NCBI RefSeq assembly: GCF_018398935.1
Contig: NZ_CP074694.1
Span: 5,400,001-5,432,000 of the forward strand
Source of the DNA: Telmatocola sphagniphila
GTDB lineage: Bacteria > Planctomycetota > Planctomycetia > Gemmatales > Gemmataceae
Reading direction: 5' to 3'
DNA: 32,000 bases
Shown: positions 19,027 through 31,272 of the stretch, one piece after another
Position numbering within the stretch: position 1 is the stretch's first letter
Layout: each line of letters begins with the position of its first letter
Program-made: the position numbers and the translations under genes
Notes under the pieces: model-generated
Told to the model about the DNA's origin: nothing
Database searches by the model: none
The model's input: the letters and a program-made list of their open reading frames with translations, nothing else

Positions 19027-19600
19027 CCTTCTTTGAAGAAATGTTCGCGATCTAGTGCGAGAACGAAGAGAATTGGACAGCTAATGCTCTCAGGCGGGCC
19101 TTTGAAATCGGAAAAGGACCTATTCCCTGCACACTATAGCATAACCTTGTTGAATTGAATAACTATGTGCGTTGTTAGACGGCGGGAATCGATTTGAACG
19201 ATTCTTATTAGCGACGCGCTAGCGGAGCGCTATTAGTACGCACTGCATCGAGACTGTCGCGTGCATTCCCTTTACATTTCGTGCTCCTCATTGAACGAAG
19301 TAATGCTCCGTTGTCGCGGTTAATATTCGGCGTGTTAGGGGCGATTTGCCGGTGCAGAAAGAGGGAAATTTCTTGCAAATCTTCGAGGAGCGAAAGTATT
19401 TTTGGGCAAAAAAATTGGTTTAAGATAACGCACTGTCAGGTACCTAGTGCCACCCCACGGCCCGCGCGCATAAACGGGTAAAATAGAAGATCTGGCGCGT
19501 TGTAATTTTTTGTGTTAGAACGGTCCTAATTGTTCGGCAATCCGTAGACTCAGGTGTAATTGTCTAGGTGATGTGTCCGACATTTTTTAAGGACTGTCGG

Positions 19601-20743
19601 ATGGCCGAGAAACTCGTTGATATTGAAAGCATCGGTTCCTATTTCGAATCGCTCAGCGACCCTCGACACGAACGCAATCGCAAGCATCGACTTTTGGACG
19701 TCATCGTCCTTTCTATCGTCGGCATCCTTTGTGGGGCCAGTGGTCCGACCGCCATTCACCGGATTGCGGTTCAGCGTAAAGAATGGCTCCAGGGTTTTTT
19801 GACGTTAGCCAATGGGATCCCTTCGCGGGACTGCATCCGGCGGGTGTTGATGTACATCGAACCAGCGGCCTTTCAGAAGTGTTTTGAAATGTGGTCGCAG
19901 CAGATGTTTGCAACGGGAGTTCCAGGAGCGAAGCGGTTGGTTCATATTGACGGCAAGGCGTGCCGGGGTTCGCACGATGTCTCGAAGGACTTGGGTGTTT
20001 TGCACATCGTCAGCGCCTGGGCGAGCGAAGAAGGGTTGGCTTTGGGCCAGGTGGCGTGTGCGGATAAATCCAATGAAATTACGGCGATTCCTGAACTTTT
20101 GCGGCAGATTTCGGTGAAAGATTGTTTGATAAGCATTGATGCGATGGGTTGTCAAAAAGAGATCGCTTCGGCCATCGTCGACAAAGAAGGGGATTACGTT
20201 TTGGCGGTGAAGCAGAATCAACCCACGCTCTACAACGAGGTCGAAAAGAATTTTCTAGCCAGCTACGAAGAAGAGGTTGAAGGGTTGAAATATCGGGACT
20301 TCGAAACGCGAGAACGAGGCCACGGTCGTTTCGACGAACGGTCGTACCGAGTGATGCCGATTCCAAAGGATTGGCCCTTGAAAAAAGAGTGGCCGAGCGT
20401 CAAAGCCCTTGGCCAGGCGATTCGTGTGAGCCAGGAGGGAAACGACCTCGAGACGGTCGAGGTGCGCTACTACATCCTGAATCGCCAAGCGGGAGTAAAG
20501 AGGTTTGCGGAAGCCGTGCGAAGTCATTGGTCGATCGAATCGATGCACTGGGTGCTGGACGTTGTGTTTCGGGAAGATGAGAGCCGAACACGCGAGCGAA
20601 TTCTAGGCAACAATTTGAGTTGGCTAAGACGCTATGCCGTATCTTTATTGAAGAACTACGACATGAAAGACAGCATCCGAGGCAAAATGACCTGCTGCTT
20701 ACTCAACACGGACATTTTGACACAAGTGCTGATAGGAAAATAA
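19601..20743 (+). CDS. ISAs1-family (H-repeat-associated) DDE transposase, apparently intact
   Basis: From the ATG at 19601: FESLSDPRHERNRKHRLLDVIVLSIVGILCGASG (DDE_Tnp_1-associated N-terminus), IDGKACRGS, ISIDAMGCQKEIA and HWSIESMHWVLDVVFREDESR. These are signature motifs of ISAs1/IS1358-type transposases. IS ends could not be defined. Confidence 0.9.
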   Translation: MAEKLVDIESIGSYFESLSDPRHERNRKHRLLDVIVLSIVGILCGASGPTAIHRIAVQRKEWLQGFLTLANGIPSRDCIRRVLMYIEPAAFQKCFEMWSQQMFATGVPGAKRLVHIDGKACRGSHDVSKDLGVLHIVSAWASEEGLALGQVACADKSNEITAIPELLRQISVKDCLISIDAMGCQKEIASAIVDKEGDYVLAVKQNQPTLYNEVEKNFLASYEEEVEGLKYRDFETRERGHGRFDERSYRVMPIPKDWPLKKEWPSVKALGQAIRVSQEGNDLETVEVRYYILNRQAGVKRFAEAVRSHWSIESMHWVLDVVFREDESRTRERILGNNLSWLRRYAVSLLKNYDMKDSIRGKMTCCLLNTDILTQVLIGK

Positions 20744-20763: not shown

Positions 20764-20834
20764 TGGTGCCACCCAAGCCATTACAGGATAATGACTTGCG
20801 CTTATTGAGAAAGGATGTCAGTACCACCCGCCGG
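20764..20834 (+). repeat. Solo copy of the ~68-bp terminal-repeat unit (right-end orientation) abutting the transposase stop
   Basis: GTGGTGCCACCCAAGCCATTACAGGATAATGACTTGCGCTTATTGAGAAAGGATGTCAGTACCACCCGCCGG aligns with the right terminal unit at 25242-25313. Shared parts are the GTGCCACCCAAG start, the ATAATGACTTG core and the CAGTxxCACCCGxCGG end. Confidence 0.65.
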
Positions 20835-21049
20835 GGCTAGCATGGTACACCGCTGGCGGGTAAATTAACCAGTTCTATCCCCATTTTGACTTGAATTTTC
20901 ACATTAGAGGGAGGGTTCAACAGATAGAGCAACCGAGATCGCCAGTGGTTCTAGAGCCATTCCTGACATATCCTTTGCTAGAGAAGCGAGGTATACTCAA
21001 CAAAAACCACTGGGGAGTGAATTGTCCCGGATTGGTCGCCTAGGGAGTT

Positions 21050-22069
21050 GTGTGTGTGGCTACTGCTGAGCAACTAAAAGCACTGATTAAAAGCCACACG
21101 TCGAGCAATGACGAACACTTCCGCACTGTGGCGCTGCAAATCGCCGCGCACACTGCTAAGCAAGGAAATACCCGTCTTGCCGACGAACTTCGTGCTCTTG
21201 TGGAAGAAGGTCGTCGAAAACAAGCCACGGCAGGGACGCCGCGTGCGATACCAATCGCTCGACCATCAGGCGAACTCGCAGGCCTTGTTGCCGCCAGCTA
21301 TCCAAACACTCGGCTAATTGATATGGTGCTCACTGAGAGCATCCGCCACCAGCTCGAAGAAGCAGTCCAACAGCATCGACAACGAGACCGCTTACGCACT
21401 CACGGTTTCGCGCCGAAGCGACGTCTACTCCTTGTCGGTCCTCCCGGTTGCGGAAAGACCATGACTGCTACGGCACTCGCAGGAGAGTGCCAACTTCCAT
21501 TGATGTTCGTGCAGCTTCACAGTCTGATCACGAAATACATGGGTGAGACTGCGGCGAAGCTACACGTTGTTTTCGATGCGATGGCAGAGACCCGAGGCGT
21601 CTATTTATTCGATGAGTTTGACGCAATTGGAGCGACTCGAACAGCAGGCAACGATGTCGGCGAGATTCGCCGAGTACTCAATTCGTTTCTTCAATTCATG
21701 GAGCGAGACGACTCAGACAGTATCATCGTAGCCGCGACAAATTTCATGGAAATGTTAGACGACGCACTGTTTCGTCGTTTCGACGATGTGATTCGATATT
21801 CGCCTCCTAACAGTAAAGCCATCCGGTCGCTTATCGAATCAAGACTCAGCTCTTTCACCCTTACCGGCTTGCGGTGGCAAAAACTGCTTACTGCTGCCAA
21901 GGGGTTGAGTCATGCCGAGGTGGCACGTTCTTGCGACGCCGCCGCTCGCACGACCATTCTAGGTGGTGATACGACACTGACAGGCGATCAACTCGTACAA
22001 GCCCTTTCTGCGCGTAGCGGAATGCGGTTGCATTCTCCAAAATCCAGGAAAAAAACTTCGCATGATTGA
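21050..22069 (+). CDS. AAA+ ATPase (classic clade), IetA-like partner of the downstream subtilase
   Basis: Walker A GPPGCGKT (21437-21460). Walker B VYLFDEFD (Asp-Glu codons at 21611-21616). Sensor-1 region is IIVAATN, and LDDALFRRFD carries the arginine-finger region. GTG start at 21050 is preceded by GGGAG; GTG at 21056 is also possible. The stop overlaps the next gene by 8 nt. Confidence 0.85.
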   Translation: MCVATAEQLKALIKSHTSSNDEHFRTVALQIAAHTAKQGNTRLADELRALVEEGRRKQATAGTPRAIPIARPSGELAGLVAASYPNTRLIDMVLTESIRHQLEEAVQQHRQRDRLRTHGFAPKRRLLLVGPPGCGKTMTATALAGECQLPLMFVQLHSLITKYMGETAAKLHVVFDAMAETRGVYLFDEFDAIGATRTAGNDVGEIRRVLNSFLQFMERDDSDSIIVAATNFMEMLDDALFRRFDDVIRYSPPNSKAIRSLIESRLSSFTLTGLRWQKLLTAAKGLSHAEVARSCDAAARTTILGGDTTLTGDQLVQALSARSGMRLHSPKSRKKTSHD

Positions 22070-24746
22070 GAAGCCCCATCTCAGGTTGCACAACACAGCC
22101 CAACCTCTCGATTATACATCAACAATAACCGGCAGTAGAAAGGTTTTCGACCTTCCTCCGCGTGATCCTTCAATTCACGCTCCAAAGTTAAAGGCGGAAA
22201 TTGATGCAGCAAGTGCAAATGCTCAGTTACGCCGTAAGGCCAACCAAAGTCTGACACCCGACGTTCTTGCAAGAAAACCAGAAGGGATGATTCTGACATT
22301 TGAAAGCGATCCCGGAGGTGAACTCAAACTCGAAAGTCTGGAAGACCAGCGTGCTGGCATCAAGGTAGTCAGCGTCAACCAAGTTGATGGTATTGAGCAA
22401 GCCAAAGTATTCGTCCCCGAAGGAAAGCAGACGTTCTTGCTGCGAAAGATTGACGAGTACACATCTCATGCCACTTTGACCATTGATGGAGACTTGTCAA
22501 ACCGGCCTCGACTGGAAGCTCTGGCTGATTTGGAACTCGGTATTCGCGTAATCGCCAAAGATCGCCCGGGAGATAAGGTTCGAGTCACAATCAAATGTCC
22601 AGCAGCCGAGGCAGACCGCATCGCTGCCGAGGTGTCATCATTTGCAACCGTAAAAAAATCGGCCCGAAAGAACGAGCCTCTCATACATAGTATCGCTGCT
22701 GTTCGGCTCGCACTCGTTCATGATTTCTGGCAAGGCTCAGGTCCCCCGCCGACAACAAAGTCGCCAATGTGGTGGGAAGTTTGGCTACACGGTCGGCGAG
22801 ACAAAGCAGTGGAACGGTTTGATCGTTTCCGAGAGATCGCACGGCACCTCGGCATCCGAACTGGCTCAAGATTTATCGCGTTTCCTGAAAGAGTCGTGTT
22901 TGTCGCCTACGCCACGGCCACTCAGTTTGCAGAATCCATAGACTTGTTGACTATGCTCTCGGAACTCAGACGAGCGAAAGAACTTCCAACACCTTACGTA
23001 ACGCTAAGTGTTATCGATCAGCGAGCTTTCAGCCAGAATTTACTGACTTCACTTCAGCCTCCGCGTGCTGACGCTCCATCTGTTTGCTTGCTTGACAGCG
23101 GGGTTAATCGAGGCCATCCGCTACTAGATGTCGCACTAAGCGAGCAAGACGTATTTGCAGTGGATTCAGAATGGGGAACAGCAGATCACGATACATACCA
23201 ACACGGAACGGGCATGGCTGGTATCGCACTCTACGGTTGCCTAACAAAAGTTCTTGCCCAGTCCGGAATAGTATCTCTTAGTCACCGATTGGAATCCGTC
23301 AAAATACTCCCACCCCCTCCCAAAGCAAATGACCCTGATCTGTATGGGGCAATCACTCAGCAAGCCGCATCACTAGCAACCATCAGAAATCCGAATCGTA
23401 ACCGCGTTTACTGCATGGCTGTCACATCTGATTCAAGCGACAACGGGCTTCCGTCATCTTGGTCTGCGGCCCTTGATGAAATGTGTGCTGGTGTGGTTGA
23501 TGAGACCCCTAAGTTATTCTTTGTCTCTGCGGGTAACATCCGAAGCGAATTTCACGCAACCAGCTACAAATATCACGCTTGGAATTGTGAGCAGGCCGGT
23601 GTCGAAGACCCAGCCCAATCGTGGAATGCTATTACGGTCGGAGCATATACCGAAAAAGTTGCAATTAGCGAATCCGACTTTGAGGGATGGCAACCGCTTG
23701 CCGAACCAGGGGATCTGTGCCCGACAAGTAGGACATCGCTTGCTTGGCCCACTGACCAACATAAAGGCTGGCCGACGAAGCCGGATTTTGTCTGTGAAGG
23801 AGGAAATTACGTTGAGATCGCTGGCAAGCGTTCCAGTGCAGATGACCTTTCACTTCTCACGACCATACTACATCCAAGTGGTCGTCTGTTTGAAACAACC
23901 AGAGATACAAGTCCCGCCACTGCTGAAGCTGCGCGACTAGCGGCCACTCTTTGGAGCCACTATCCCACGTTGCGTCCGGAAACTTTACGTGCATTGCTCG
24001 TCCACTCATCACGTTGGACGGATGCGATGTATCGTCGGTTCCCAGGTGACAAGAAGTCACAGATTCAAAGGCGACTTCGAACTTATGGTTACGGCGTGCC
24101 AGACTTAAACCGAGCGCTCTACAGTTTGGTAAACGCCGTAACTCTCGTTTACGAGGGTGGACTTCAGCCTTTTAAGTTAGATGCGCAAAAACAGCCAAAG
24201 ACAAATGAAATGCACTTACATTCTCTACCGTGGCCCAAAAAAACCTTGGAGGATCTTGGCAAAACAGAAGTTTCAATGCGGGTCACATTATCGTATTTCA
24301 TTGAGCCAAGCCCGGGACGAGTTGGTTGGGAAAACAAACACCGCTACCAGTCACACGGCCTTCGTTTCGACGTTATTCGTCCAACAGAAATGCTATCAGA
24401 GTTTCGACAGCGAGTTTCTCGTGCCGAATGGGATGACCCGAAAAACCCCAAGAGTAGACCCGATACTGTTGCCGAGACGCGAAACTGGATTGTCGGCGAA
24501 GACGGCCGGACGCATGGCTCCATTCATTCTGATTGGTGGACTGGAACAGCTGCGGAACTTGCGGCCGCAGGTCACTTAGCTGTATATCCAGTAACTGGTT
24601 GGTGGCGTGAGCGGCCTCATCTCGGAAGGGTGGCTCAAAGGACACGTTACAGTCTCATTATCTCAATCGAGACACCAGATACTGCAGTGGATCTCTACAC
24701 TCCAATCGAAGTCTCGTCGAATGTTAAGACCGAAGTGTTGGTGTGA
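22062..24746 (+). CDS. Cytoplasmic S8 (subtilisin-like) serine peptidase with large N- and C-terminal extensions, IetS-like
   Basis: 894 aa with no signal peptide. Subtilase motifs occur in canonical order: CLLDSGV (Asp codon 23094), QHGTGMAG (His codon 23202), VSAGN (Asn codon 23535) and RDTSPATAEAA (Ser codon 23910). About 340 aa at the N-terminus and ~270 aa at the C-terminus are unassigned. Confidence 0.85.
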   Translation: MIEKPHLRLHNTAQPLDYTSTITGSRKVFDLPPRDPSIHAPKLKAEIDAASANAQLRRKANQSLTPDVLARKPEGMILTFESDPGGELKLESLEDQRAGIKVVSVNQVDGIEQAKVFVPEGKQTFLLRKIDEYTSHATLTIDGDLSNRPRLEALADLELGIRVIAKDRPGDKVRVTIKCPAAEADRIAAEVSSFATVKKSARKNEPLIHSIAAVRLALVHDFWQGSGPPPTTKSPMWWEVWLHGRRDKAVERFDRFREIARHLGIRTGSRFIAFPERVVFVAYATATQFAESIDLLTMLSELRRAKELPTPYVTLSVIDQRAFSQNLLTSLQPPRADAPSVCLLDSGVNRGHPLLDVALSEQDVFAVDSEWGTADHDTYQHGTGMAGIALYGCLTKVLAQSGIVSLSHRLESVKILPPPPKANDPDLYGAITQQAASLATIRNPNRNRVYCMAVTSDSSDNGLPSSWSAALDEMCAGVVDETPKLFFVSAGNIRSEFHATSYKYHAWNCEQAGVEDPAQSWNAITVGAYTEKVAISESDFEGWQPLAEPGDLCPTSRTSLAWPTDQHKGWPTKPDFVCEGGNYVEIAGKRSSADDLSLLTTILHPSGRLFETTRDTSPATAEAARLAATLWSHYPTLRPETLRALLVHSSRWTDAMYRRFPGDKKSQIQRRLRTYGYGVPDLNRALYSLVNAVTLVYEGGLQPFKLDAQKQPKTNEMHLHSLPWPKKTLEDLGKTEVSMRVTLSYFIEPSPGRVGWENKHRYQSHGLRFDVIRPTEMLSEFRQRVSRAEWDDPKNPKSRPDTVAETRNWIVGEDGRTHGSIHSDWWTGTAAELAAAGHLAVYPVTGWWRERPHLGRVAQRTRYSLIISIETPDTAVDLYTPIEVSSNVKTEVLV

Positions 24747-24866
24747 AGTCAAAATTTATGGTTCTTCTCCAATTTTAATGGGTAAGTGCTGCAATGAATT
24801 CACGGCGGGGTGGCACTGGCAACCCTAACCTGTAACCGCAAGTCATTATACAGTAATAGTTTGGGT

Positions 24867-24888
24867 GGCACTGGCTATTGCCAGTGCC
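24867..24888. repeat. Perfect 9-bp-stem hairpin GGCACTGGC-TATT-GCCAGTGCC at the inner edge of the left terminal unit
   Basis: Read directly. Its reverse complement is identical to the hairpin at 29216-29237 that immediately precedes the group II intron. Confidence 0.8.
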
Positions 24889-24942
24889 GGATAGAATGAC
24901 GAAACCAATACCTAATCCCACTTATCCCGAATTCTAGCCTGA

Positions 24943-25185
24943 TTCCTGAAAAATAGGCTGGCTGCATGGGCAGATCCAGCTTTCGAAATTACGGACTCCT
25001 TCCCTCCTGACGAATGGTTGAAGGGATATCCATTCGAGCGAGCCATGGACTGTAAATGGTCCTCAGCCAAGTTTTACTCCCAGAAGACTCTGGAACAGCG
25101 AGATCGAGATTTGCCAATTAGTCAGGGTTTTCCTGAAGATTGGCAAGAATACGAGCTAACAAGTCGTGAATTCCTTGTGGTTTGA
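24943..25185 (+). pseudogene. Start-less 80-codon open frame inside MITE-like copy 1 (gene remnant)
   Basis: Open from the TGA at 24940 to the TGA at 25183. It translates as FLKNRLAAWADPAFEITDSFPPDEWLKGYPFERAMDCKWSSAKFYSQKTLEQRDRDLPISQGFPEDWQEYELTSREFLVV. No ATG/GTG occurs near its 5' end. The paralogous frame in copy 2 (about 28931-29175) is broken by a 2-nt insertion. Confidence 0.35.
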
Positions 25186-25517
25186 AATAGGGTGATTTGA
25201 TGTCGAAAATGGATGAGTTCCTTATGGCACTATCAGATACACAGTGCCACCCAAGTATTTGCTGTATAATGACTTGTGATTATTGGGAGGGGTTGCCAGT
25301 GTCACCCGTCGGGCAAGCTCACTTTGCCAAAGAGAAAGCCCTTCTCTCTTGGCCAGGGCGTGAGTGATTACCAAATGAGGGCGTAAAGGATCAAATCTTA
25401 AATCATGATAATAATTTTGTAAGTAATAAGCCGAATTCTTTTCTAATGGCTTTGACTAATAATCGAGTACTGCTTAATATTAGGCTCAACTTCAGTGCTC
25501 AGGAGTAGCCTTCGCCA

Positions 25518-25955
25518 ATGCCCCGCTTGATTCCAATTCCAATTTTGAATTCACTGAGATATTGGTATTTTCCAATTGCGGCATTGTTACTGTTTGCCGC
25601 TGGCACAAAAATATTTGGGCAAAGCTGGGGGCCAGATCCTCAATCCAATTGGATACTTTTACCGGTTGTGCAATCAATCGTAATAGCCTGGGAGATACTT
25701 CTCGCTAGTTTGCTCCTGTCAGGACATATACGCCACATAGCTTGGCTCTTATGTGTAATCACATTCTTAACTTTTGCATTGGTTAGCGCTGATTTAGCAC
25801 AAGAAGGTTTTCCTACTTGTAACTGCTTTGGCCCAGTTGCTGTAAATCCGTGGCTGATCTTCGGGTTTGATACGCTGGTTGTATGTTTTCTATTTCTTGC
25901 CGTCCAGTACCTTTTAAAATTCGAGCTGAGATCTTGCGGCATGGATTTTCTCTAG
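25518..25955 (+). CDS. MauE/DoxX-family redox-associated membrane protein
   Basis: 145 aa with four hydrophobic helices. It has the family-typical Cys-x-Cys-Phe-Gly motif (CNCFG) after the third helix. AGGAG lies 12 nt upstream of the ATG. Confidence 0.6.
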   Translation: MPRLIPIPILNSLRYWYFPIAALLLFAAGTKIFGQSWGPDPQSNWILLPVVQSIVIAWEILLASLLLSGHIRHIAWLLCVITFLTFALVSADLAQEGFPTCNCFGPVAVNPWLIFGFDTLVVCFLFLAVQYLLKFELRSCGMDFL

Positions 25956-25969
25956 CCAAAGTGGTTTTG

Positions 25970-26350
25970 ATGATTGGCACAGTAATGGTGTGGTTGTCTG
26001 CAAGCGGCGCAATCCATGCAGCAATTTGCATCATCACGGGAAGAGTTTTAGAAGTTGAGCGTTACGTGGACTTTGGTGAGGTACATCCCCAGGAAAAATT
26101 TATTCATGAATTGACTATCAGAAATTCGAGCAGTATTGAACTGAATGTGGTAGGTGGCACGAGTGATTGCTCTTGTCTTGTAATAAATGTACCACAGTCA
26201 ATTCCTCCAAACGGCAGTGCATCTGTTCAAGTGCTGCTAAAAGTTCCCTCTGAAGCGAGAAGTCGAATTATTCGATGGGTTCAACTGTATACTGATTTAC
26301 CCAACCAGCCGCGTTTGCGGATAGCGATCGGTTACAATGTCAGCAGATAG
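25970..26350 (+). CDS. DUF1573-domain (PapD/ASH-like beta-sandwich) protein with an N-terminal signal anchor
   Basis: From the ATG at 25970 (the GTG at 25961 is also possible): signal anchor MIGTVMVWLSASGAIHAAICII, then VDFGEVHPQEKFIHELTIRNSSSIELNVVGGTSDCSCLV...IPPNGSASVQVLLKV. This follows the DUF1573 pattern (DFG..., N.G...L, SCGC-like, PG....I.V). The longer track ORF overlaps the upstream gene. Confidence 0.6.
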   Translation: MIGTVMVWLSASGAIHAAICIITGRVLEVERYVDFGEVHPQEKFIHELTIRNSSSIELNVVGGTSDCSCLVINVPQSIPPNGSASVQVLLKVPSEARSRIIRWVQLYTDLPNQPRLRIAIGYNVSR

Positions 26351-26403
26351 TTCGCCGGAGACAGGTTTCGGCAGCTTAAGGTTCGTTGAATCAGGCGTTC
26401 GTG

Positions 26404-26682
26404 ATGAAGAAGAAAAAGTTTAGATTGTTGAGCACTCTAACGCTCGGTACTCTGTGCCTATTCACGGCAATATCGGCTGCTCAAGAACTTTCACAAATGC
26501 TACCACCTCCCATTCCAATCCCAGCGCTCTTATGCTACCGGGCTTCAAGCCCTACCGAATGGGCGTGTGATGGGTTATGTACTGTAGAAGGTGAATCTTG
26601 CGGGCGACTCACCGGTGTCGGATTCATGGAGATTGATGGCCAGAGAGTAAGCTACACTGCATATAGCTGCGCTTGCGGTTAA
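26404..26682 (+). CDS. Small secreted Cys-rich protein (92-aa precursor, ~64-aa mature, 6 Cys)
   Basis: The ATG at 26404 gives MKKKKFRLLSTLTLGTLCLFTAISAAQE (signal peptide). The mature part is PPPIPIP...CYRASSPTEWACDGLCTVEGESCGRLTG...YSCACG. No family recognised. Confidence 0.5.
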   Translation: MKKKKFRLLSTLTLGTLCLFTAISAAQELSQMLPPPIPIPALLCYRASSPTEWACDGLCTVEGESCGRLTGVGFMEIDGQRVSYTAYSCACG

Positions 26683-26775
26683 TTCTGAACAGTCATATTT
26701 AAAAAAATAATAGCCTTCAGCGATATTAATAGCTGGAGGGGATACATTAAAATCATAAAATGAAAGATCTTGGTT

Positions 26776-27813
26776 ATGCGAAGATCAATGCAAAGGTTTT
26801 TGCACAGCATTGTTAAAACGGCATGCGTTACCTTTATATTTGTTCTCGTAACAGTTAATTGTGCTGCAGCCCAATACCAATCGACAACGTCTGAGGAACT
26901 GGCATCAAAGGGCATCACTTTCGATAAAGAGGCCGCTGCGAATTTTAAAATAACGCTTAAAAAACAAGCGTATCTTACAGACACGGCGACTAGACGGCTA
27001 GACGAACTCAATGCTCTTTATCTCACCTATAAAGTTGAAGGTGATAAAAATACATACACGGTCTATCGATCTCCCGACTATATCCTTGCACTAAATGACA
27101 AGTCGGTTATAGCGATGTCAAAACGAGGAGCATTCCGATTATCCCGCCCAGCTATTGATAAGCCTTATCGCTTGGAAATAGCTATAACTGTCAGCGAATT
27201 GGCTGCGAACCCCGGCGTGTGGCAGGAATTTATTAGAAGCTCAGGATTACGAGCAAAAGGAATTTTTCCACATGGGGATTCGGATTCCCCTTTTCTTCAG
27301 ATCGATTCAATCTTAGGTCGTGCCGTTTCAACGATTCAAAAAATCGAGCCTGATACCAATGGACGGCTCTGGCTCGATTATATTTACACTCCCGTGTTAA
27401 AGGGCAAAGGCATTCTGTCGGAAACGGGACGGCTTCTTATCGATCCGAAAAATTACAATGTAGTCCTTGAGAACTTGCGAACCCTCTCCGAAAAAGATCT
27501 GCCAAAAGCCGTAACCACGATTCACGAGAAGCTTTCGTATCAAGCGCCCTCGTCTGAAATCCCTTTTGCACTCGTCAATGAATGGAATTTTACCGAAACA
27601 GCCGATGGTAATAAACCCATTCTTCATCACCTGAAATTCACCGATTACAAGATCGAAAAACTAGACCGCGAGCGATTGCGGTTATCCTTTTATAATTTGC
27701 CAAACGAACTCGTAGAGGATGCGACAAGTTATCAGTTTATCTGGCTGATCGCTTTGGTACTTGCACTGATAAGTTCGGCTGTTTTTCTAATTCTATTCTT
27801 TCGGAAGGCTTAG
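26776..27813 (+). CDS. Hypothetical bitopic envelope protein (N-terminal signal peptide, C-terminal TM anchor)
   Basis: ATG at 26776 (26788 is also possible). Signal region is TACVTFIFVLVTVNCAAAQY. About 290 aa are soluble with no recognised motif. C-terminal helix is FIWLIALVLALISSAVFLILFF. The stop is 2 nt before the next ATG. Confidence 0.55.
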   Translation: MRRSMQRFLHSIVKTACVTFIFVLVTVNCAAAQYQSTTSEELASKGITFDKEAAANFKITLKKQAYLTDTATRRLDELNALYLTYKVEGDKNTYTVYRSPDYILALNDKSVIAMSKRGAFRLSRPAIDKPYRLEIAITVSELAANPGVWQEFIRSSGLRAKGIFPHGDSDSPFLQIDSILGRAVSTIQKIEPDTNGRLWLDYIYTPVLKGKGILSETGRLLIDPKNYNVVLENLRTLSEKDLPKAVTTIHEKLSYQAPSSEIPFALVNEWNFTETADGNKPILHHLKFTDYKIEKLDRERLRLSFYNLPNELVEDATSYQFIWLIALVLALISSAVFLILFFRKA

Positions 27814-27815
27814 CC

Positions 27816-28715
27816 ATGAAGCGATACAGGAAGAATTGCTCAGGTTTTACGCTTGTCGAAGTGCTCGTTGCGATCGCCGTTATTGCAGTTTTAATGGGCC
27901 TTCTACTATCCGCCGTGCAGAAAGTTCGTGAGGCAGCGACCCGTCTTCAGTGTCAAAATAATCTTAAACAACTGGGACTGGCCTCTCAAAATTATCACTC
28001 ATCTCACGGTGTTCTGCCGATGGGAATAACACCAATTATCGCGAGAGATTCGTTTAGATATTCAACTTGGCTCACGCATCTGCTGCCTTTTATCGAGCAA
28101 GATCCGCTGTGGAATGAAACAATCCATGCTTATGGAGTCCAACCAAGAAATCCTTTTAGCGATGCACATGTTGGGATGCGAACAGTAGTTAAATTATTTA
28201 CCTGCCCCAGCGATAGCCGATTAGTTCGGCCTCATGCTACGCATGGTCAGGTCTACGCCGCACTGACAAGCTATCAAGGGGTAAGCGGGACAGCTTATCT
28301 CCATGCTGATGGCGTCTATTATAATGATTCCTTAACCAAGCTTACGGACATCACAGACGGCACTTCCAACACGTTAGCCTTCGGCGAACGACCACCGAGT
28401 GCCGATTTTTATTATGGATGGTGGTATGCCTCCGGACTGTACGGGAAACAGGGTGGCACGGCTGTTCTAGGCGTGAGGGAGTTACGAGCGCCGAACTATC
28501 TGTTTACACCTGGCTGTCAAGAAGGTCCTTATTCATTTAGCCCGGGTAACATTTCCAATCAGTGTGATCTGTTTCATTTTTGGAGTTTGCACGATGGCGG
28601 AGCAAATTTCGCTTTTTCCGACGGGGCCGTCCGGTTCATGCGTTATGCCGCTGATTCCGTGATGCCAGCACTTGCTACACGTGCCGGTGGAGATGTTGTT
28701 GCCTCACTAAATTAA
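27816..28715 (+). CDS. DUF1559 / H-X9-DG protein with a prepilin-type N-terminal cleavage/methylation domain (type II pseudopilin-like)
   Basis: GFTLVEVLVAIAVIAVLMGLLLSAVQKVREAA is a prepilin-type leader plus hydrophobic helix. CQNNLKQLGLASQNYHS is present. The C-terminal HDGGANFAFSDG fits His-X9-Asp-Gly exactly. Confidence 0.9.
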   Translation: MKRYRKNCSGFTLVEVLVAIAVIAVLMGLLLSAVQKVREAATRLQCQNNLKQLGLASQNYHSSHGVLPMGITPIIARDSFRYSTWLTHLLPFIEQDPLWNETIHAYGVQPRNPFSDAHVGMRTVVKLFTCPSDSRLVRPHATHGQVYAALTSYQGVSGTAYLHADGVYYNDSLTKLTDITDGTSNTLAFGERPPSADFYYGWWYASGLYGKQGGTAVLGVRELRAPNYLFTPGCQEGPYSFSPGNISNQCDLFHFWSLHDGGANFAFSDGAVRFMRYAADSVMPALATRAGGDVVASLN

Positions 28716-29705
28716 GGCTCGATGTCATTACGTCCAAGACCATCCATGTGCATGACACAGGCTTATTTGCCCGTGCAAGAAAAAGCTTGCGGCGGGGTGG
28801 CACTGGTAACCCTAACCTGTAAACGCAAGTCATTATACAGTAATAGTTTGGGTGGCACTGGCTATTTGCTGATGCCAGAGAGAGTGAAGAGATCAAAACC
28901 TTATCCCACTCATCCCGAATTCTAGCCATCTTCCTGGAAGATACGCTAGCTGCATGGGCAAATCCAGCCCTCGAAATTACGGACTTCTTCCCTCCTGACC
29001 AAGGGTTGAAGGGATATCTCCATTCGAGCGAGCCATGGACTTTAAGTGGTCCTCGGCCAAATTTTACTCCCAGAAGACTCTGGAAGTGCGAGATCGAGAT
29101 TTGCCAATTATTCATGGTCTTCCTGGTGATTGGGGAGGATATGAGCTACCAGGGCATGAATTCTTTCTGGGTTAAAATAGGGTGATTTGTGATTGAAAAT
29201 GGGTGATTTCGCAATGGCACTGGCAATAGCCAGTGCCACGTGCGCCCGTGACTATTCGATACTAGCAGGGTGAGATTCCCTGTCGAAAGGAGGCTTGGCC
29301 TTTTGTACCCGAAGGTAACTGCGTCGCTGCGAGGCGGGGTGGAGAGCAACCGGAGGGGAGCATTTCGTCCGCAATAAAGTGAACTCATTTCGGCAGCGGA
29401 TACCGGCGAGCCTGCGTGGCTAAGGCGAAGCTAGCAAAGCCGGATTGACCGAGAGGTCCGCCAGTGGTTTGGAGAACTAATGGCGACGGCATCATCCCGA
29501 GATAAAGCCCCAAGCGAGTCGAGGGAGGTATCCGATGTGGTTGGAGGCGGAAGGAAAGCGAAGGTATCGAATGTAAGCGGGGATATCCGAGGCGCCGGGG
29601 AAGGCAAATGCCTTGTGCGTCGGAAGTCAGAGCGTTCATAGTAGCGTAGAAATCGGGTAATACCGAGGGAGCGAAGGGACGTAGGAAGGTGGATTTCGAG
29701 GTTAC

Positions 29706-31073
29706 ATGAGCAGGAAAGAGAAACCGTCGTCAGTGCCAGTGGCTAAGCAAGGCGGAGAAGCCGGCGACCGAACTCCGGGAACCGTTAGTAGGGTCCGAGA
29801 GCAATGGTCGTGGGCGGAACCTGCGGTGTGGACTGATCGGATGTTGAGTGCGCTCGAAGCGGGCGTTAAAGGAGGCGTCTGGTTTAGCTTGATGGACAAG
29901 GTGTGCAAGAAGAGGAACCTGAAGTCGTCGGCGACGAAAGTCATAGCGAATGCGGGTTCGGCAGGCGTGGATCATGTAAGTGTCGAGGCGTTTGCAAATC
30001 ATTTGGACGAGAACCTGGAAGCTTTGGAGCGGACTTTACGGGACGGAACCTACCGTCCTTCGGCGATCCGGCGAGCGGTAATTCCGAAGCCGGGGAGTGA
30101 AGAAGGCCGTCCTCTAGGAATTCCGACGGTTCGAGACCGGGTGGTTCAAGGCGCGATTCGTCAGGTGCTGGAACCGATTTTCGAGAAGGATTTCGCCTCG
30201 AATAGTTACGGCTTTCGTCCGGGCCGGGGCTGCAAAAATGCCTTGCGAGAGGTGGACAGACTTCTGAAAGAAGGAGGCACGCATCTGGTGGATGTCGACA
30301 TCAAGGGCTACTTCGACGCGATCAATCACGATCAATTAATGGATTTATTGAAGCGAAAGGTCGCGGACGGAACGCTACTAGGTCTGGTGGAACAATTTCT
30401 GAAAGCCGAGATATTCTCGTCGATGGGGAGTTGGGAACCGGAATCGGGAGCCCCGCAAGGGGCAGTTTTGAGTCCGTTGTTGAGTAACGCCTATCTGGAT
30501 CCTTTGGACCATTTGATGGAATCCCTAGGTTTTCGGATGGTGCGATACGCGGATGACATGGTGATCGTCTGCCGCAGTCGAGCGGAAGCGGAAGAAGCCC
30601 TGGCGACGTTGAGCCGCTGGTGCGAATCGGCCAAGCTACAACTGCATCCGGAAAAGACGAGAGTGGTGGACACGCAGATCGAGAGTTTCGAATTTCTAGG
30701 CTATTGCTTTGGAGTTTATAAAGGACAACGTCTGATATATCCTCGGAAGCGAAGTCTGGAGAAACTTCGGGATGCGATTCGCGCGAAAACGAAGCGGAAA
30801 AGAGGCGATAGCCTATCGCAGATCGTCCGAGACGTGAGCGTAACGCTACGAGGCTGGTACGGATACTTCAAGCACAGCAAAAAGGGGATCTTTCGGGACG
30901 TGGATAAATGGACTCGAATGCGGCTGCGGTGCATACTGCGTCGTCGTCTGGGTCACGATTGCAGAAGCCGAAAGAGAGATAACTTCAAGTGGCCCAAAGC
31001 TTACTTTGCCGAGGCGGGACTGTTCTCCCTGGAACAGGCACATCGTCTGGAATCTCAATCCCTCAAGGGGTAA
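29706..31073 (+). CDS. Group II intron reverse transcriptase/maturase
   Basis: 455 aa. RT blocks are RPLGIPTVRDRVVQ, SYGFRPGRGCKNA, VDVDIKGYFD, GAPQGAVLSPLLSN and VRYADDMVIV (YADD codons 30546-30557). Maturase/X region is LRGWYGYFKHS. There is no HNH/En extension. Confidence 0.92.
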   Translation: MSRKEKPSSVPVAKQGGEAGDRTPGTVSRVREQWSWAEPAVWTDRMLSALEAGVKGGVWFSLMDKVCKKRNLKSSATKVIANAGSAGVDHVSVEAFANHLDENLEALERTLRDGTYRPSAIRRAVIPKPGSEEGRPLGIPTVRDRVVQGAIRQVLEPIFEKDFASNSYGFRPGRGCKNALREVDRLLKEGGTHLVDVDIKGYFDAINHDQLMDLLKRKVADGTLLGLVEQFLKAEIFSSMGSWEPESGAPQGAVLSPLLSNAYLDPLDHLMESLGFRMVRYADDMVIVCRSRAEAEEALATLSRWCESAKLQLHPEKTRVVDTQIESFEFLGYCFGVYKGQRLIYPRKRSLEKLRDAIRAKTKRKRGDSLSQIVRDVSVTLRGWYGYFKHSKKGIFRDVDKWTRMRLRCILRRRLGHDCRSRKRDNFKWPKAYFAEAGLFSLEQAHRLESQSLKG

Positions 31074-31088
31074 GACTACTGACCGGAA

Positions 31089-31158
31089 AGCCGGATGCGG
31101 GAGATCCGCCCGTCCGGTTTGGAGGGAAGGGGGAGCCCTATACTCCTCCTAGCCCTAT
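31089..31158 (+). ncRNA. Group II intron domains V and VI
   Basis: DV reads AGCCGGAUGCGG-GAGAU-CCGC(CC)GUCCGGUU. Its pairs are A89-U19, G90-U18, C91-G17, C92-G16, G93-C15, G94-C14, A95-U13, U96-G12, then G97-C09, C98-G08, G99-C07 and G00-C06 (last two digits of coordinates). DV is followed by a GGGGAG/CUCCUC helix and a terminal AU. Confidence 0.7.
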
Positions 31159-31272
31159 CCAAGATGAATCAGAGTAAAGAGTTAGGATCAAACGGTTAAT
31201 CTGACCAGTGCCACCCGGCCGCAAAATGTTCTGCAGAAATGGGAATGAGGGCGATTTTGGATCTTAAACCAC

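What the first reader, a model, noticed from the sequence alone, without database searches (positions are those of the whole stretch)
29216..31163. Group II intron inserted 2 nt after a perfect hairpin inside the repeat element, with unoccupied copies of the same site nearby
Intron ends can be fixed precisely. GTGCG starts at 29240 and ...CCCTAT ends at 31158. Joining the flanks gives CAGTGCCAC|CCAAG, exactly the uninterrupted sequence at 25242-25255 in copy 1.

The 5' exon ends with GGCACTGGC-AATA-GCCAGTGCC-AC (hairpin 29216-29237). Further empty sites exist:
- The identical 27-nt string GGCACTGGCAATAGCCAGTGCCACCCAA on the minus strand of copy 1 (24863-24889).
- Weaker versions at 20765-20777 and 31206-31218.

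The intron lacks an endonuclease domain, and it has a compact ribozyme (about 466 nt upstream and 85 nt downstream of the ORF). Insertion just after a stem-loop in non-coding DNA is the behaviour described for bacterial class C (IIC) introns, which target terminator or attC hairpins. Here the hairpin belongs to a mobile repeat, so one retroelement appears to parasitise another.

Candidate EBS1 sequences complementary to the exon end GCCAC are GUGGC at 29418-29422 and GUGGU at about 29534-29538. I cannot decide between them.
Basis: partly seen in the sequence, partly recalled or inferred. Interest (0 to 1): 0.6.

Follow-up and report, generated by a model that had tools for sequence, protein, structure and literature searches.

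The report
Hairpin-seeking intron inside REP repeats
A complete, apparently active self-copying group II intron sits just after a small DNA hairpin that belongs to a REP-type repeat family and its transposase; it comes from an intron lineage that lands on such multicopy hairpins in every relative genome that could be tested, a variation on the known habit of "class C" introns of landing after terminators.

Summary
An intact 1,919-nt group II intron lies at 29240-31158. It encodes a 455-aa reverse transcriptase/maturase with no endonuclease domain. It is inserted 2 nt after a perfect 9-bp hairpin, and unoccupied copies of the same site lie nearby.

The genome holds 4 full-length and 2 truncated copies, all after a hairpin ending ...CAGTGCCAC. 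About 29 similar sites are empty.

It pairs with IBS1 GCCAC. No EBS2 signal was found.

The "mobile repeat" is not a retroelement. It is a REP unit of a RAYT (REP-associated tyrosine transposase) system, and the window's two copies are decayed RAYT genes between inverted REP units.

The intron behaves like a class C (IIC) intron but is not a canonical one:
- Domain V has an AGC triad and is 33 nt long.
- The RT forms a separate clade from CGC-type IIC introns.
- The stem ends 1-4 nt before the insertion site, not 8-10 nt, and no T-run follows.
- EBS1 pairing is 5-6 bp and overlaps the base of the stem.

In seven relatives' genomes the target hairpin is also a multicopy dispersed repeat.

Earlier notes of this scan reached the same reading on other windows of this genome.

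The parts
29240..31158 (+). Group II intron, 1,919 nt, full length
   Evidence: 5' GUGCG. Rfam RF00029 match ends at 31158. An empty-site sequence shows the exact join. Three further full-length copies, 94-99% identical, lie elsewhere in the genome.
29706..31073 (+). Intron-encoded RT/maturase, 455 aa, YADD motif present, no endonuclease domain
   Evidence: Pfam RVT_1 at 7e-39 and GIIM at 2e-12. TIGR04416 at 372 bits, cut-off 300. Best solved relatives are GsI-IIC RT at 231 bits and E.r. IIC RT at 217 bits, against 146 for a IIB RT and 140 for a IIA RT.
29416..29420 (+). EBS1 (GUGGC) in the terminal loop of the hairpin GCC-UGCGUGGCUA-AGGC
   Evidence: The aligned loop is complementary to the last 4 nt of the 5' exon in 36 of 40 non-redundant relatives and to the last 5 nt in 80%. 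The best other column reaches at most 23%.
29235..29239 (+). IBS1 (GCCAC); its first 3 nt are the last 3 nt of the 3' arm of the hairpin
29216..29237 (+). Target hairpin (9-bp stem, AATA loop), the inner hairpin of a REP unit
   Evidence: DNA fold -17.4 kcal/mol, z = -6.9. It is part of an ~82-nt REP family with about 80 copies in the genome.
31088..31121 (+). Domain V: AGC triad at 31089-31091, 33 nt, GAGA loop
   Evidence: Rfam alignment. The same AGC-type domain V was found in all 66 relatives in which a domain V pattern that itself specifies AGC was matched.
31122..31158 (+). Domain VI, candidate branch A at 31151, 3' end ...CCCUAU
   Evidence: Rfam alignment. A conserved ...CCUACCCCUAU 3' end is seen in relatives.
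31159..31221 (+). 3' exon: the rest of the split REP unit, ending at the outer terminus CCAGTGCCACCCGG. The first base, C at 31159, is IBS3.
   Evidence: Inverted-repeat pair I5 with 28787-28817. The first 3' exon base is C in nearly all relatives.
28792..28874 (-). Left, inverted REP unit of 'copy 2'
   Evidence: nhmmer hit at 5428792-5428874 in genome coordinates. Repeat family D3, 97% identical to 24803-24879.
29026..29172 (+). Remnant of a RAYT gene (C-terminal 49 aa), same orientation as the intron
   Evidence: tblastn with the intact RAYT: 69% identity to residues 159-207.
24805..25308 (.). 'Copy 1': inverted REP units (24805-24887 minus strand, 25227-25308 plus strand) around a RAYT remnant (25012-25179). 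It holds two unoccupied intron target sites: ...GCCAC|CCAA on the minus strand at 24861-24888 and on the plus strand at 25227-25255.

Best explanation
The feature is a mobile group II intron of a IIC-like lineage that lacks an endonuclease and seeks hairpins. It has retrohomed into the inner hairpin of a REP unit that flanks a decayed RAYT transposase gene.

Inferred mechanism, by analogy with IIC introns:
1. The intron RNA and its RT/maturase form an RNP.
2. The RNP docks on the REP hairpin when the DNA is single-stranded, for example at a replication fork.
3. EBS1 (GUGGC) pairs with GCCAC at the foot of the stem.
4. A still unlocated EBS3 reads the C that follows.
5. The RNA reverse-splices between 29239 and 31159.
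6. Because there is no endonuclease, cDNA synthesis would be primed by a nascent DNA strand.

Shown here:
- the exact boundaries;
- filled and empty sites;
- multiple copies, all after the same hairpin;
- the EBS1-IBS1 pairing, by covariation;
- no detectable EBS2;
- hairpin association across the whole clade;
- the REP/RAYT nature of the target.

Inferred, not shown: single-stranded DNA as the substrate, the way cDNA synthesis is primed, opening of the 1-3 basal stem pairs that EBS1 overlaps, and present-day activity.
For: Intron identity and boundaries.

Copies in the genome:
- There are 4 full-length and 2 truncated copies.
- They lie in three different flank contexts, each directly after ...CAGTGCCAC.
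- 35 sites of the form hairpin+CAC were found, of which 5 are occupied. A sixth occupied copy has a mismatched stem and was missed by that scan.
- Empty versions of the 475-nt unit that hosts copies c2-c5 exist.

Exon recognition: EBS1 covaries with IBS1 in 36 of 40 relatives, and no EBS2 signal appears.

Hairpin association across the clade:
- The 5' exon hairpin has mean dG -8.2 against -3.4 kcal/mol in control windows, p = 8e-19.
- The stem ends 1-4 nt before the site in 35 of 40 relatives.

The target is REP/RAYT:
- The intact 207-aa gene at G000:C1:5369618-5370238 passes NCBIfam REP_Tyr_transpos (82.3 bits, cut-off 80) and Pfam Y1_Tnp (25.4 bits, cut-off 23).
- It lies between inverted REP units.
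- The window's copies are C-terminal remnants of the same gene.

Relatives' target hairpins are multicopy repeats in their own genomes: 15 to 137 copies in seven genomes, with controls of 0-1.
Against: - No experiment was done. Splicing and mobility are inferred from intact motifs and 94-99% identical copies.
- Copies c2-c5 share 338 nt of upstream flank and 136 nt of downstream flank, so some of them may have spread with the host repeat rather than by retrohoming.
- Within this genome all targets share the sequence CAGTGCCAC. Structure and sequence recognition cannot be separated here; only the comparison across the clade separates them.
- EBS3 was not located.
- Only 4 of 6 copies lie on the inferred lagging-strand template.
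- In the relatives, the RAYT loci examined are flanked by other hairpin families, so a RAYT link is shown only for this genome.
Confidence: 0.85

Rival explanations
1. It is an ordinary member of bacterial class C (canonical IIC), and the REP hairpin merely stands in for a transcription terminator.
For: - The RT lacks an endonuclease domain and is most similar to solved IIC RTs.
- No EBS2 signal was found, and the intron is inserted after a stem-loop.
- A sister relation to the CGC-type IIC clade is not rejected (AU p = 0.49).
- Earlier pipelines might well label such introns 'C'.
Against: - Domain V has an AGC triad and a 4-5-bp distal stem. Class C is defined by CGC and a distal stem 2 bp shorter (PMC1702495).
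- The RT clade is separated from the CGC-type clade with SH-aLRT 98-99 under two models. That clade includes an attC intron and the S. meliloti class C intron.
- The stem ends 1-4 nt from the site with no T-run. The five canonical IIC introns fetched here sit 8-10 nt after a stem followed by a T-run.
- EBS1-IBS1 is 5-6 bp, not 3-4 bp.
Confidence: 0.15
2. It is a sequence-specific homing intron (IIB-like) whose homing site happens to be the REP sequence. The hairpin as a structure plays no part.
For: In this genome every occupied site shares at least 9 identical bases, CAGTGCCAC. EBS1 pairing is relatively long at 5 bp.
Against: - No intron segment covaries with exon positions -6 to -16. The best window is fully complementary in 10-23% of the 40 relatives, which is background level.
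- Relatives with unrelated exon sequences all keep a GC-rich stem-loop that ends 1-4 nt from the site.
Confidence: 0.07
3. The intron copies multiplied passively, carried inside a larger repeat that was duplicated or mobilised by the RAYT, rather than by their own retrohoming.
For: Copies c2, c3, c4 and fragment f5 share the same 338-nt upstream and 136-nt downstream flanks, 97-98% identical.
Against: - Three distinct flank contexts exist: c1, c2-c5 and f6.
- At least four empty copies of the same 475-nt unit exist.
- Beyond that unit the flanks are unrelated.
- All four ORFs are open.
Confidence: 0.2

Closest known systems
Bacterial class C (IIC) group II introns such as B.h.I1, O.i.I1, GsI-IIC and E.r. 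IIC, which insert after intrinsic terminators (PMC1702495, PMC10190682, PMC4424553)
   Same: - RT/maturase without an endonuclease domain.
- The target is a DNA stem-loop.
- The 5' exon is read by EBS1 only, with no EBS2.
- Insertion is in non-coding DNA.
- There are several copies per genome.
- EBS1 sits at a similar position, intron nt 177-181 here against 184-187 in the E.r. intron.
   Different: - Domain V is AGC and 33 nt, against CGC with a distal stem 2 bp shorter.
- The RT clade is separate.
- The stem ends 1-4 nt from the site instead of about 8-10 nt.
- There is no T-run.
- EBS1-IBS1 is 5-6 bp and overlaps the foot of the stem.
- The targets are dispersed GC-rich REP-like palindromes, not terminators.
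IIC-attC introns (S.ma.I2, Kl.pn.I3) that insert at integron attC hairpins
   Same: The target is the folded hairpin of another mobile-DNA system, so one mobile element lives on another's recombination site.
   Different: The attC intron fetched here (L100, beside blaIMP-4 and intI1) groups with the canonical CGC-type IIC clade, not with this clade. The target here is a REP/RAYT hairpin, not an attC site.
Lineages g6, U1 and U2, reported next to class C and also found just after predicted terminators (PMC8919778, PMC4244168)
   Same: They are RT lineages close to but outside class C that insert just after predicted terminator stem-loops.
   Different: Those papers describe terminators, not REP repeats.
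REP/REPIN-RAYT systems of E. coli and Pseudomonas, and IS elements that target REPs (PMC1525189, which lists a group II intron next to REPs at 2 of 9 copies in P. putida KT2440)
   Same: - A single intact HUH-Y1 transposase gene is flanked by inverted hairpin repeats.
- Many dispersed copies exist, often as inverted pairs.
- REPs serve as landing sites for other mobile elements.
   Different: The REP unit here is long, about 82 nt: a hairpin, a spacer, and a second copy of CCAGTGCCACCC. The RAYT only just passes the family cut-off. The association with the intron is systematic, 6 of 6 copies.

Membership tests
Group II intron (mobile, ORF-containing) | Domains V-VI with the conserved catalytic helix, a 5' GUGYG and a 3' AY | tested here: met
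   RF00029 at 46 bits, above the gathering score of 40, at 31086-31158. GUGCG at 29240. The 3' end is ...UAU.
Group II intron (mobile, ORF-containing) | RT/maturase ORF in domain IV | tested here: met
   RVT_1 and GIIM domains. TIGR04416 at 372 bits, cut-off 300.
Bacterial class C / IIC | Domain V with a CGC triad and a distal stem 2 bp shorter (PMC1702495) | tested here: not met
   The window has an AGC triad and a 33-nt domain V. The 66 relatives were matched with a pattern that already requires AGC, so they show the type is common but cannot show that CGC is absent. Canonical IIC anchors fetched here have CCGCCGUAUGCGGAACCGCACGUACGGUGG.
Bacterial class C / IIC | The RT falls inside the class C clade | tested here: not met
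   The clade is separated from the CGC-type IIC clade at SH-aLRT 98-99 under two models. A sister relation is not rejected (AU p = 0.49). The reference sampling was small: 7 CGC-type sequences and 9 others. The trees are quick trees.
Bacterial class C / IIC | No EBS2/IBS2 pairing | tested here: met
   No intron window covaries with exon positions -6 to -16 in 40 relatives.
Bacterial class C / IIC | Short EBS1-IBS1 pairing of 3-4 bp | tested here: not met
   The pairing is 5 bp here. Across relatives 5 bp are complementary in 80% and 6 bp in 33%.
Bacterial class C / IIC | Insertion after a stem-loop, which occupies the usual IBS2 position | tested here: met
   All 6 genomic copies follow a hairpin. 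Clade-wide p = 8e-19. The geometry differs from canonical IIC: 1-4 nt against 8-10 nt, and no T-run.
Bacterial class C / IIC | EBS3-IBS3 pairing of the IIB type, and the 11-nt epsilon-prime bulge with AGGAA | tested here: inconclusive
   IBS3 is C in nearly all relatives, but no EBS3 column could be identified. The epsilon-prime region reads GGAGGGGAGC here and GGAAGCGAA in relatives; it is similar but was not modelled.
REP/REPIN-RAYT system | HUH-Y1 transposase of the RAYT family | tested here: met
   NF047646 at 82.3 bits (cut-off 80) and PF01797 at 25.4 bits (cut-off 23). An HIH (HUH-type) motif and a Y-x3-NP motif can be read in the sequence. The margin over the cut-offs is small.
REP/REPIN-RAYT system | The gene is flanked by inverted copies of a hairpin repeat that is dispersed in many copies, while the gene itself is single or low copy | tested here: met
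   REP units lie at 5369314-5369397 (minus strand) and 5370288-5370366 (plus strand) around the gene. About 80 units occur genome-wide, often as inverted pairs about 80 nt apart. There is one intact gene, one frameshifted copy and about 6 remnants.
REP/REPIN-RAYT system | The RAYT cleaves and mobilises the REP | not testable with these tools
   This needs biochemistry.

The most novel reading that the evidence does not exclude
The window's intron belongs to a coherent, widely spread RT/ribozyme lineage found in Planctomycetota, Verrucomicrobiota, other PVC groups, and Beta- and Gammaproteobacteria. The lineage is distinct from canonical class C. Its marks are an AGC domain V, a 5-6-bp EBS1 that overlaps the foot of the stem, and insertion 1-4 nt after the stem. 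It has specialised on REP/REPIN-type dispersed hairpins rather than terminators. That would make it a retroelement lineage whose niche is the single-strand hairpin population kept up by HUH-Y1 transposases. The interference may run both ways, because REP units truncate two intron copies.
Probability: 0.45. Interest if true: 0.6.

Novelty: new variant of a known kind. Interest (0 to 1): 0.5.

Why it matters
Hairpin-directed insertion is the hallmark of class C introns and is usually explained as hiding behind terminators.

Here the same strategy appears in a separate RT/ribozyme lineage. The docking geometry is different, and the target is the hairpin of REP-type selfish repeats. In all seven relative genomes where the search pattern fitted, the target is also a multicopy dispersed hairpin.

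If this holds, three things follow:
- The known target repertoire of group II introns gains a fourth type, beside homing sites, terminators and attC sites.
- A natural series of RNPs becomes available that read DNA shape with different spacing. This is useful for understanding, and perhaps re-aiming, structure-guided retroelement insertion.
- Two systems that both depend on single-stranded DNA, the RAYT/REP system and endonuclease-less introns, are shown competing for the same hairpins.

For annotation, the result also explains the window's "MITE-like" repeats: they are decayed RAYT units.

Tried and rejected
- Rfam at a permissive E-value gave only a weak hit to group-II-D1D4-1 (16.8 bits, gathering score 35) in the domain III region. 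It carries no class information.
- RNAalifold on the MAFFT alignment of domains I-III gave a poor, partial consensus. I did not use it beyond the EBS1 hairpin.
- The search for an EBS3 column used the two relatives whose 3' exon starts with T. No column qualified.
- The careful IQ-TREE run did not finish in the time limit. I used quick trees under two models. Two rows, L084 and L114, had the wrong ORF picked, gave branch lengths of 10, and were dropped.
- I considered whether the 82-nt units are integron attC sites, because of the CCCAA...TTGGG inverted motifs. I rejected this: the units alternate in orientation and flank a RAYT gene.
- I considered whether the repeat units are the ends of the ISAs1-family IS at 19568-20743. 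There is no matching inverted left end, so this is unresolved and unlikely.
- Replication-strand bias was examined. Only 4 of 6 copies lie on the inferred lagging-strand template, and the GC skew is weak, so nothing can be concluded.
- In the relatives' genomes, none of the five RAYT loci inspected (three betaproteobacterial, one Limisphaerales) is flanked by a hairpin of the intron-target type: two are flanked by other hairpin families, one has only two unrelated palindromes, and two show no perfect palindrome within 400 nt.
- The supplements of PMC8919778 did not let me map this clade to the U1, U2 or g6 lineages.
Full report
**Observation.**
- The sequence shows GTGCG at 29240, directly after GGCACTGGC-AATA-GCCAGTGCC-AC.
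- Rfam's group II domain V-VI model matches 31086-31158 at 46 bits (gathering score 40) and ends exactly at the proposed 3' end.
- The only long ORF inside is 29706-31073. It encodes 455 aa with RVT_1 and GIIM domains and no endonuclease domain. It scores 372 bits on TIGR04416.
- The joined flanks, CAGTGCCAC|CCAAG, occur uninterrupted at 25242-25255.
- The 24-nt hairpin+AC string recurs without mismatch on the minus strand at 24865-24888, where none is expected by chance.
- The hairpin folds at -17.4 kcal/mol as DNA, z = -6.9.
- Small corrections: GUGGC is at 29416-29420, and the minus-strand identity is 28 nt, 24861-24888.

**Copies in the genome.**
- The genome is 6.59 Mb in one contig. The window is C1:5400001-5432000.
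- It holds four full-length copies, 94-100% identical, and two 5' fragments of 577 and 155 nt.
- All six follow a hairpin ending ...CAGTGCCAC.
- They lie in three flank contexts: the window copy; four copies inside one 475-nt composite unit; and one fragment elsewhere.
- Empty versions of the 475-nt unit exist at four or more places.
- A scan finds 35 sites of the form hairpin+CAC, most of them unoccupied.
- Copy c2 lacks the first two intron bases, so its 5' splice site is damaged.
- All four RT frames are open.

**What the repeat is.**
- nhmmer finds about 80 copies of an ~82-nt unit. The unit has a hairpin GCACTG-N-CA-GATA-G-N-CAGTGC, then CACCCAA, then a spacer with GACTTGCG, and then an outer terminus TGCCAGTGCCACCCC.
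- Paired changes in the stem (G..C to T..A) keep the hairpin intact.
- Units often form inverted pairs about 80 nt apart.
- One pair (5369314-5369397 on the minus strand, 5370288-5370366 on the plus strand) brackets an intact 207-aa gene. This gene passes NCBIfam REP-associated tyrosine transposase (82.3 bits, cut-off 80) and Pfam Y1_Tnp.
- tblastn with this gene shows one frameshifted copy and several C-terminal remnants. Two remnants lie in the window, at 25012-25179 and 29026-29172.
- So the window's two "repeat elements" are decayed RAYT units. The intron sits in the REP unit downstream of one remnant, in the same orientation as that remnant.
- The host carries DUF1559, DUF1573 and N-methyl proteins typical of planctomycetes. 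Earlier notes of this scan name it Telmatocola sphagniphila, which I did not verify.

**Exon recognition.**
- A scan of public genomes gave 80 loci encoding RTs 46-58% identical to this one. They come from Verrucomicrobiota, other PVC groups, Planctomycetota, and Beta- and Gammaproteobacteria.
- I placed the 5' ends by nhmmer and by the GTGYG motif and aligned domain I.
- The loop aligned with window 29416-29420 is complementary to the last 4 exon bases in 36 of 40 non-redundant introns, to the last 5 in 80%, and to the last 6 in 33%. The best other position reaches at most 23%. The exon tetramers differ widely between relatives, so this is true covariation.
- No window of the intron covaries with exon positions -6 to -16, so there is no sign of an EBS2.
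- The first 3' exon base is C in nearly all relatives. I could not locate EBS3.

**Hairpin association across the clade.**
- The last 34 exon bases fold at a mean of -8.2 kcal/mol, against -3.4 for 180 control windows from the same loci (Mann-Whitney p = 8e-19).
- The stem ends 1-4 nt before the insertion site in 35 of 40 relatives.
- EBS1 pairs with 4-6 bases, so it overlaps the foot of the stem by 1-3 pairs. Here GCC of GCCAC lies in the stem.

**Is it class C?** Toor et al. (PMC1702495) define IIC by the following features:
- small size;
- a domain V with a CGC triad and a distal stem 2 bp shorter;
- an epsilon-prime bulge containing AGGAA;
- an EBS3 of the IIB type;
- a 3-4-bp EBS1;
- no EBS2;
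- a stem-loop in the 5' exon.

How this clade compares:
- The window's domain V reads GAGCCGGAUGCGGGAGAUCCGC..GUCCGGUUC, an AGC triad in 33 nt. The same AGC type was matched in 66 relatives, but the search pattern itself specified AGC, so this shows the type is common in the clade, not that it is universal.
- Five plasmid-borne introns that I fetched have the canonical CCGCCGUAUGCGGAACCGCACGUACGGUGG. They sit 8-10 nt after a stem followed by a T-run.
- In RT trees under two models, this clade (20 rows) and the CGC-type clade (7 rows) are each monophyletic with SH-aLRT 98-99, and neither is nested in the other. The CGC-type clade includes the attC intron beside blaIMP-4 and the S. meliloti pSymB intron. 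PMC5894124 reports a class C intron on pSymB of strain GR4; I take the strain 1021 locus used here to be the same one, without checking.
- An AU test does not reject the two clades being sisters (p = 0.49).
- Among solved structures the RT is closest to IIC RTs (231 and 217 bits, against 146 and 140).
- Miura et al. (PMC8919778) report lineages g6, U1 and U2 next to class C that also lie just after predicted terminators. I could not test whether this clade is one of them.
- My verdict: the intron works like a IIC intron but is not a canonical class C member. It is best described as a IIC-like sister lineage.

**Targets of the relatives.** The target hairpins of relatives are multicopy dispersed repeats in their own genomes:

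| Genome | Copies of the target hairpin | Note |
|---|---|---|
| Limisphaerales genome | 137 | mostly inverted pairs 26 nt apart |
| Verrucomicrobiae genome | 61 | |
| Four betaproteobacterial genomes | 15, 43, 32 and 132 | |
| Methylobacter genome | 26 | |

- Reversed-pattern controls gave 0-1 hits in every case.
- In three other genomes the pattern did not fit the local hairpin, so they say nothing.
- The four of these genomes that I searched (the Limisphaerales one and three betaproteobacterial ones) all carry RAYT-family genes. None of the five RAYT loci inspected there is flanked by a hairpin of the intron-target type. The RAYT link is therefore shown only in the window's own genome.

**Mechanism.** By analogy with the cryo-EM structure of the E.r. 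IIC RNP on a DNA stem-loop (PMC10190682) and with endonuclease-less introns in general (PMC4424553), I infer the following:
1. The RNP docks on the extruded REP hairpin in single-stranded DNA.
2. EBS1 reads GCCAC and EBS3 reads the following C.
3. The RNA reverse-splices into the DNA.
4. A nascent DNA strand primes cDNA synthesis.

The short stem-to-site distance implies that the RNP holds the stem differently from canonical IIC RNPs, or that the basal pairs open. GC skew places the origin near 5.1 Mb and the terminus near 1.6 Mb. Four of six copies lie on the lagging-strand template, which is not informative.

**Prior knowledge.**
- IIC introns "downstream of terminators or other inverted repeats" have been known since 2002-2006.
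- A REP association was tabulated for 2 of 9 intron copies in P. putida KT2440 (PMC1525189).
- In the library searched I found no paper describing an intron lineage specialised on REP/RAYT hairpins with this geometry.
- The scan itself reached the same reading on other windows of this genome.
- I rate the finding a new variant of a known kind, of moderate interest.

Noticed in passing
G000:C1:3995341-3995919 and 5947394-5947548 (outside the window): Both truncated intron copies end exactly at the outer terminus (GGGTGNCACTGG...) of an inverted REP unit, at intron positions 577 and 155. REP units, or recombination mediated by the RAYT, therefore also disrupt the intron.
   Followed up: partly
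G000:C1:3916003-3918053 and the other copies of the 475-nt unit (for example 1993159-1993298): In the 475-nt unit, the hairpin+CAC is followed by about 55 nt of unrelated sequence and then a second ...AACCAGTGCCAC|CCAAAC. It looks as if an older insertion of about 79 nt had entered at the same CAC| position that the intron uses.
   Followed up: no
G000:C1:3911386-3912492 and 1994339-1995439 (loci L094, L095): A second, unrelated group II intron family (602-aa frame) groups with Klebsiella and E. coli plasmid introns in the tree. Both copies lie within a few kb of REP clusters that carry the first intron or its empty site.
   Followed up: partly
window 19568-20743, with 19430-19461 and 20766-20835: An ISAs1-type DDE transposase gene (DDE_Tnp_1_assoc plus DDE_Tnp_1) ends 20 nt before a partial REP unit. 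A hairpin-like fragment lies upstream in the same orientation. The relation between this IS and the REP family is unclear.
   Followed up: no
window 21050-24746: Overlapping genes for an AAA+ ATPase (339 aa) and a subtilase (894 aa).
   Followed up: no
window 25518-28715: A five-gene cassette (MauE-like, DUF1573, a small protein with no Pfam match, an unknown protein, and a DUF1559/N-methyl pseudopilin) lies exactly between the two decayed RAYT units.
   Followed up: no
L097 (Leptospira noguchii plasmid p1_LIP1804061, 97008-101021): This intron has the same AGC-type 33-nt domain V and an RT 39.5% identical to the window's. In the tree it falls outside both this clade and the CGC-type IIC clade. 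Its 5' exon was not determined.
   Followed up: no
G005:C25 (locus L117, 1119-2227): A betaproteobacterial RAYT gene is flanked on both sides by regular arrays of two alternating 18-nt palindromes, GTCGGCC..GGCCGAC and GTGCGGC..GCCGCAC. This is a textbook BIME-like arrangement and differs from the hairpin family that the intron uses in that genome.
   Followed up: no
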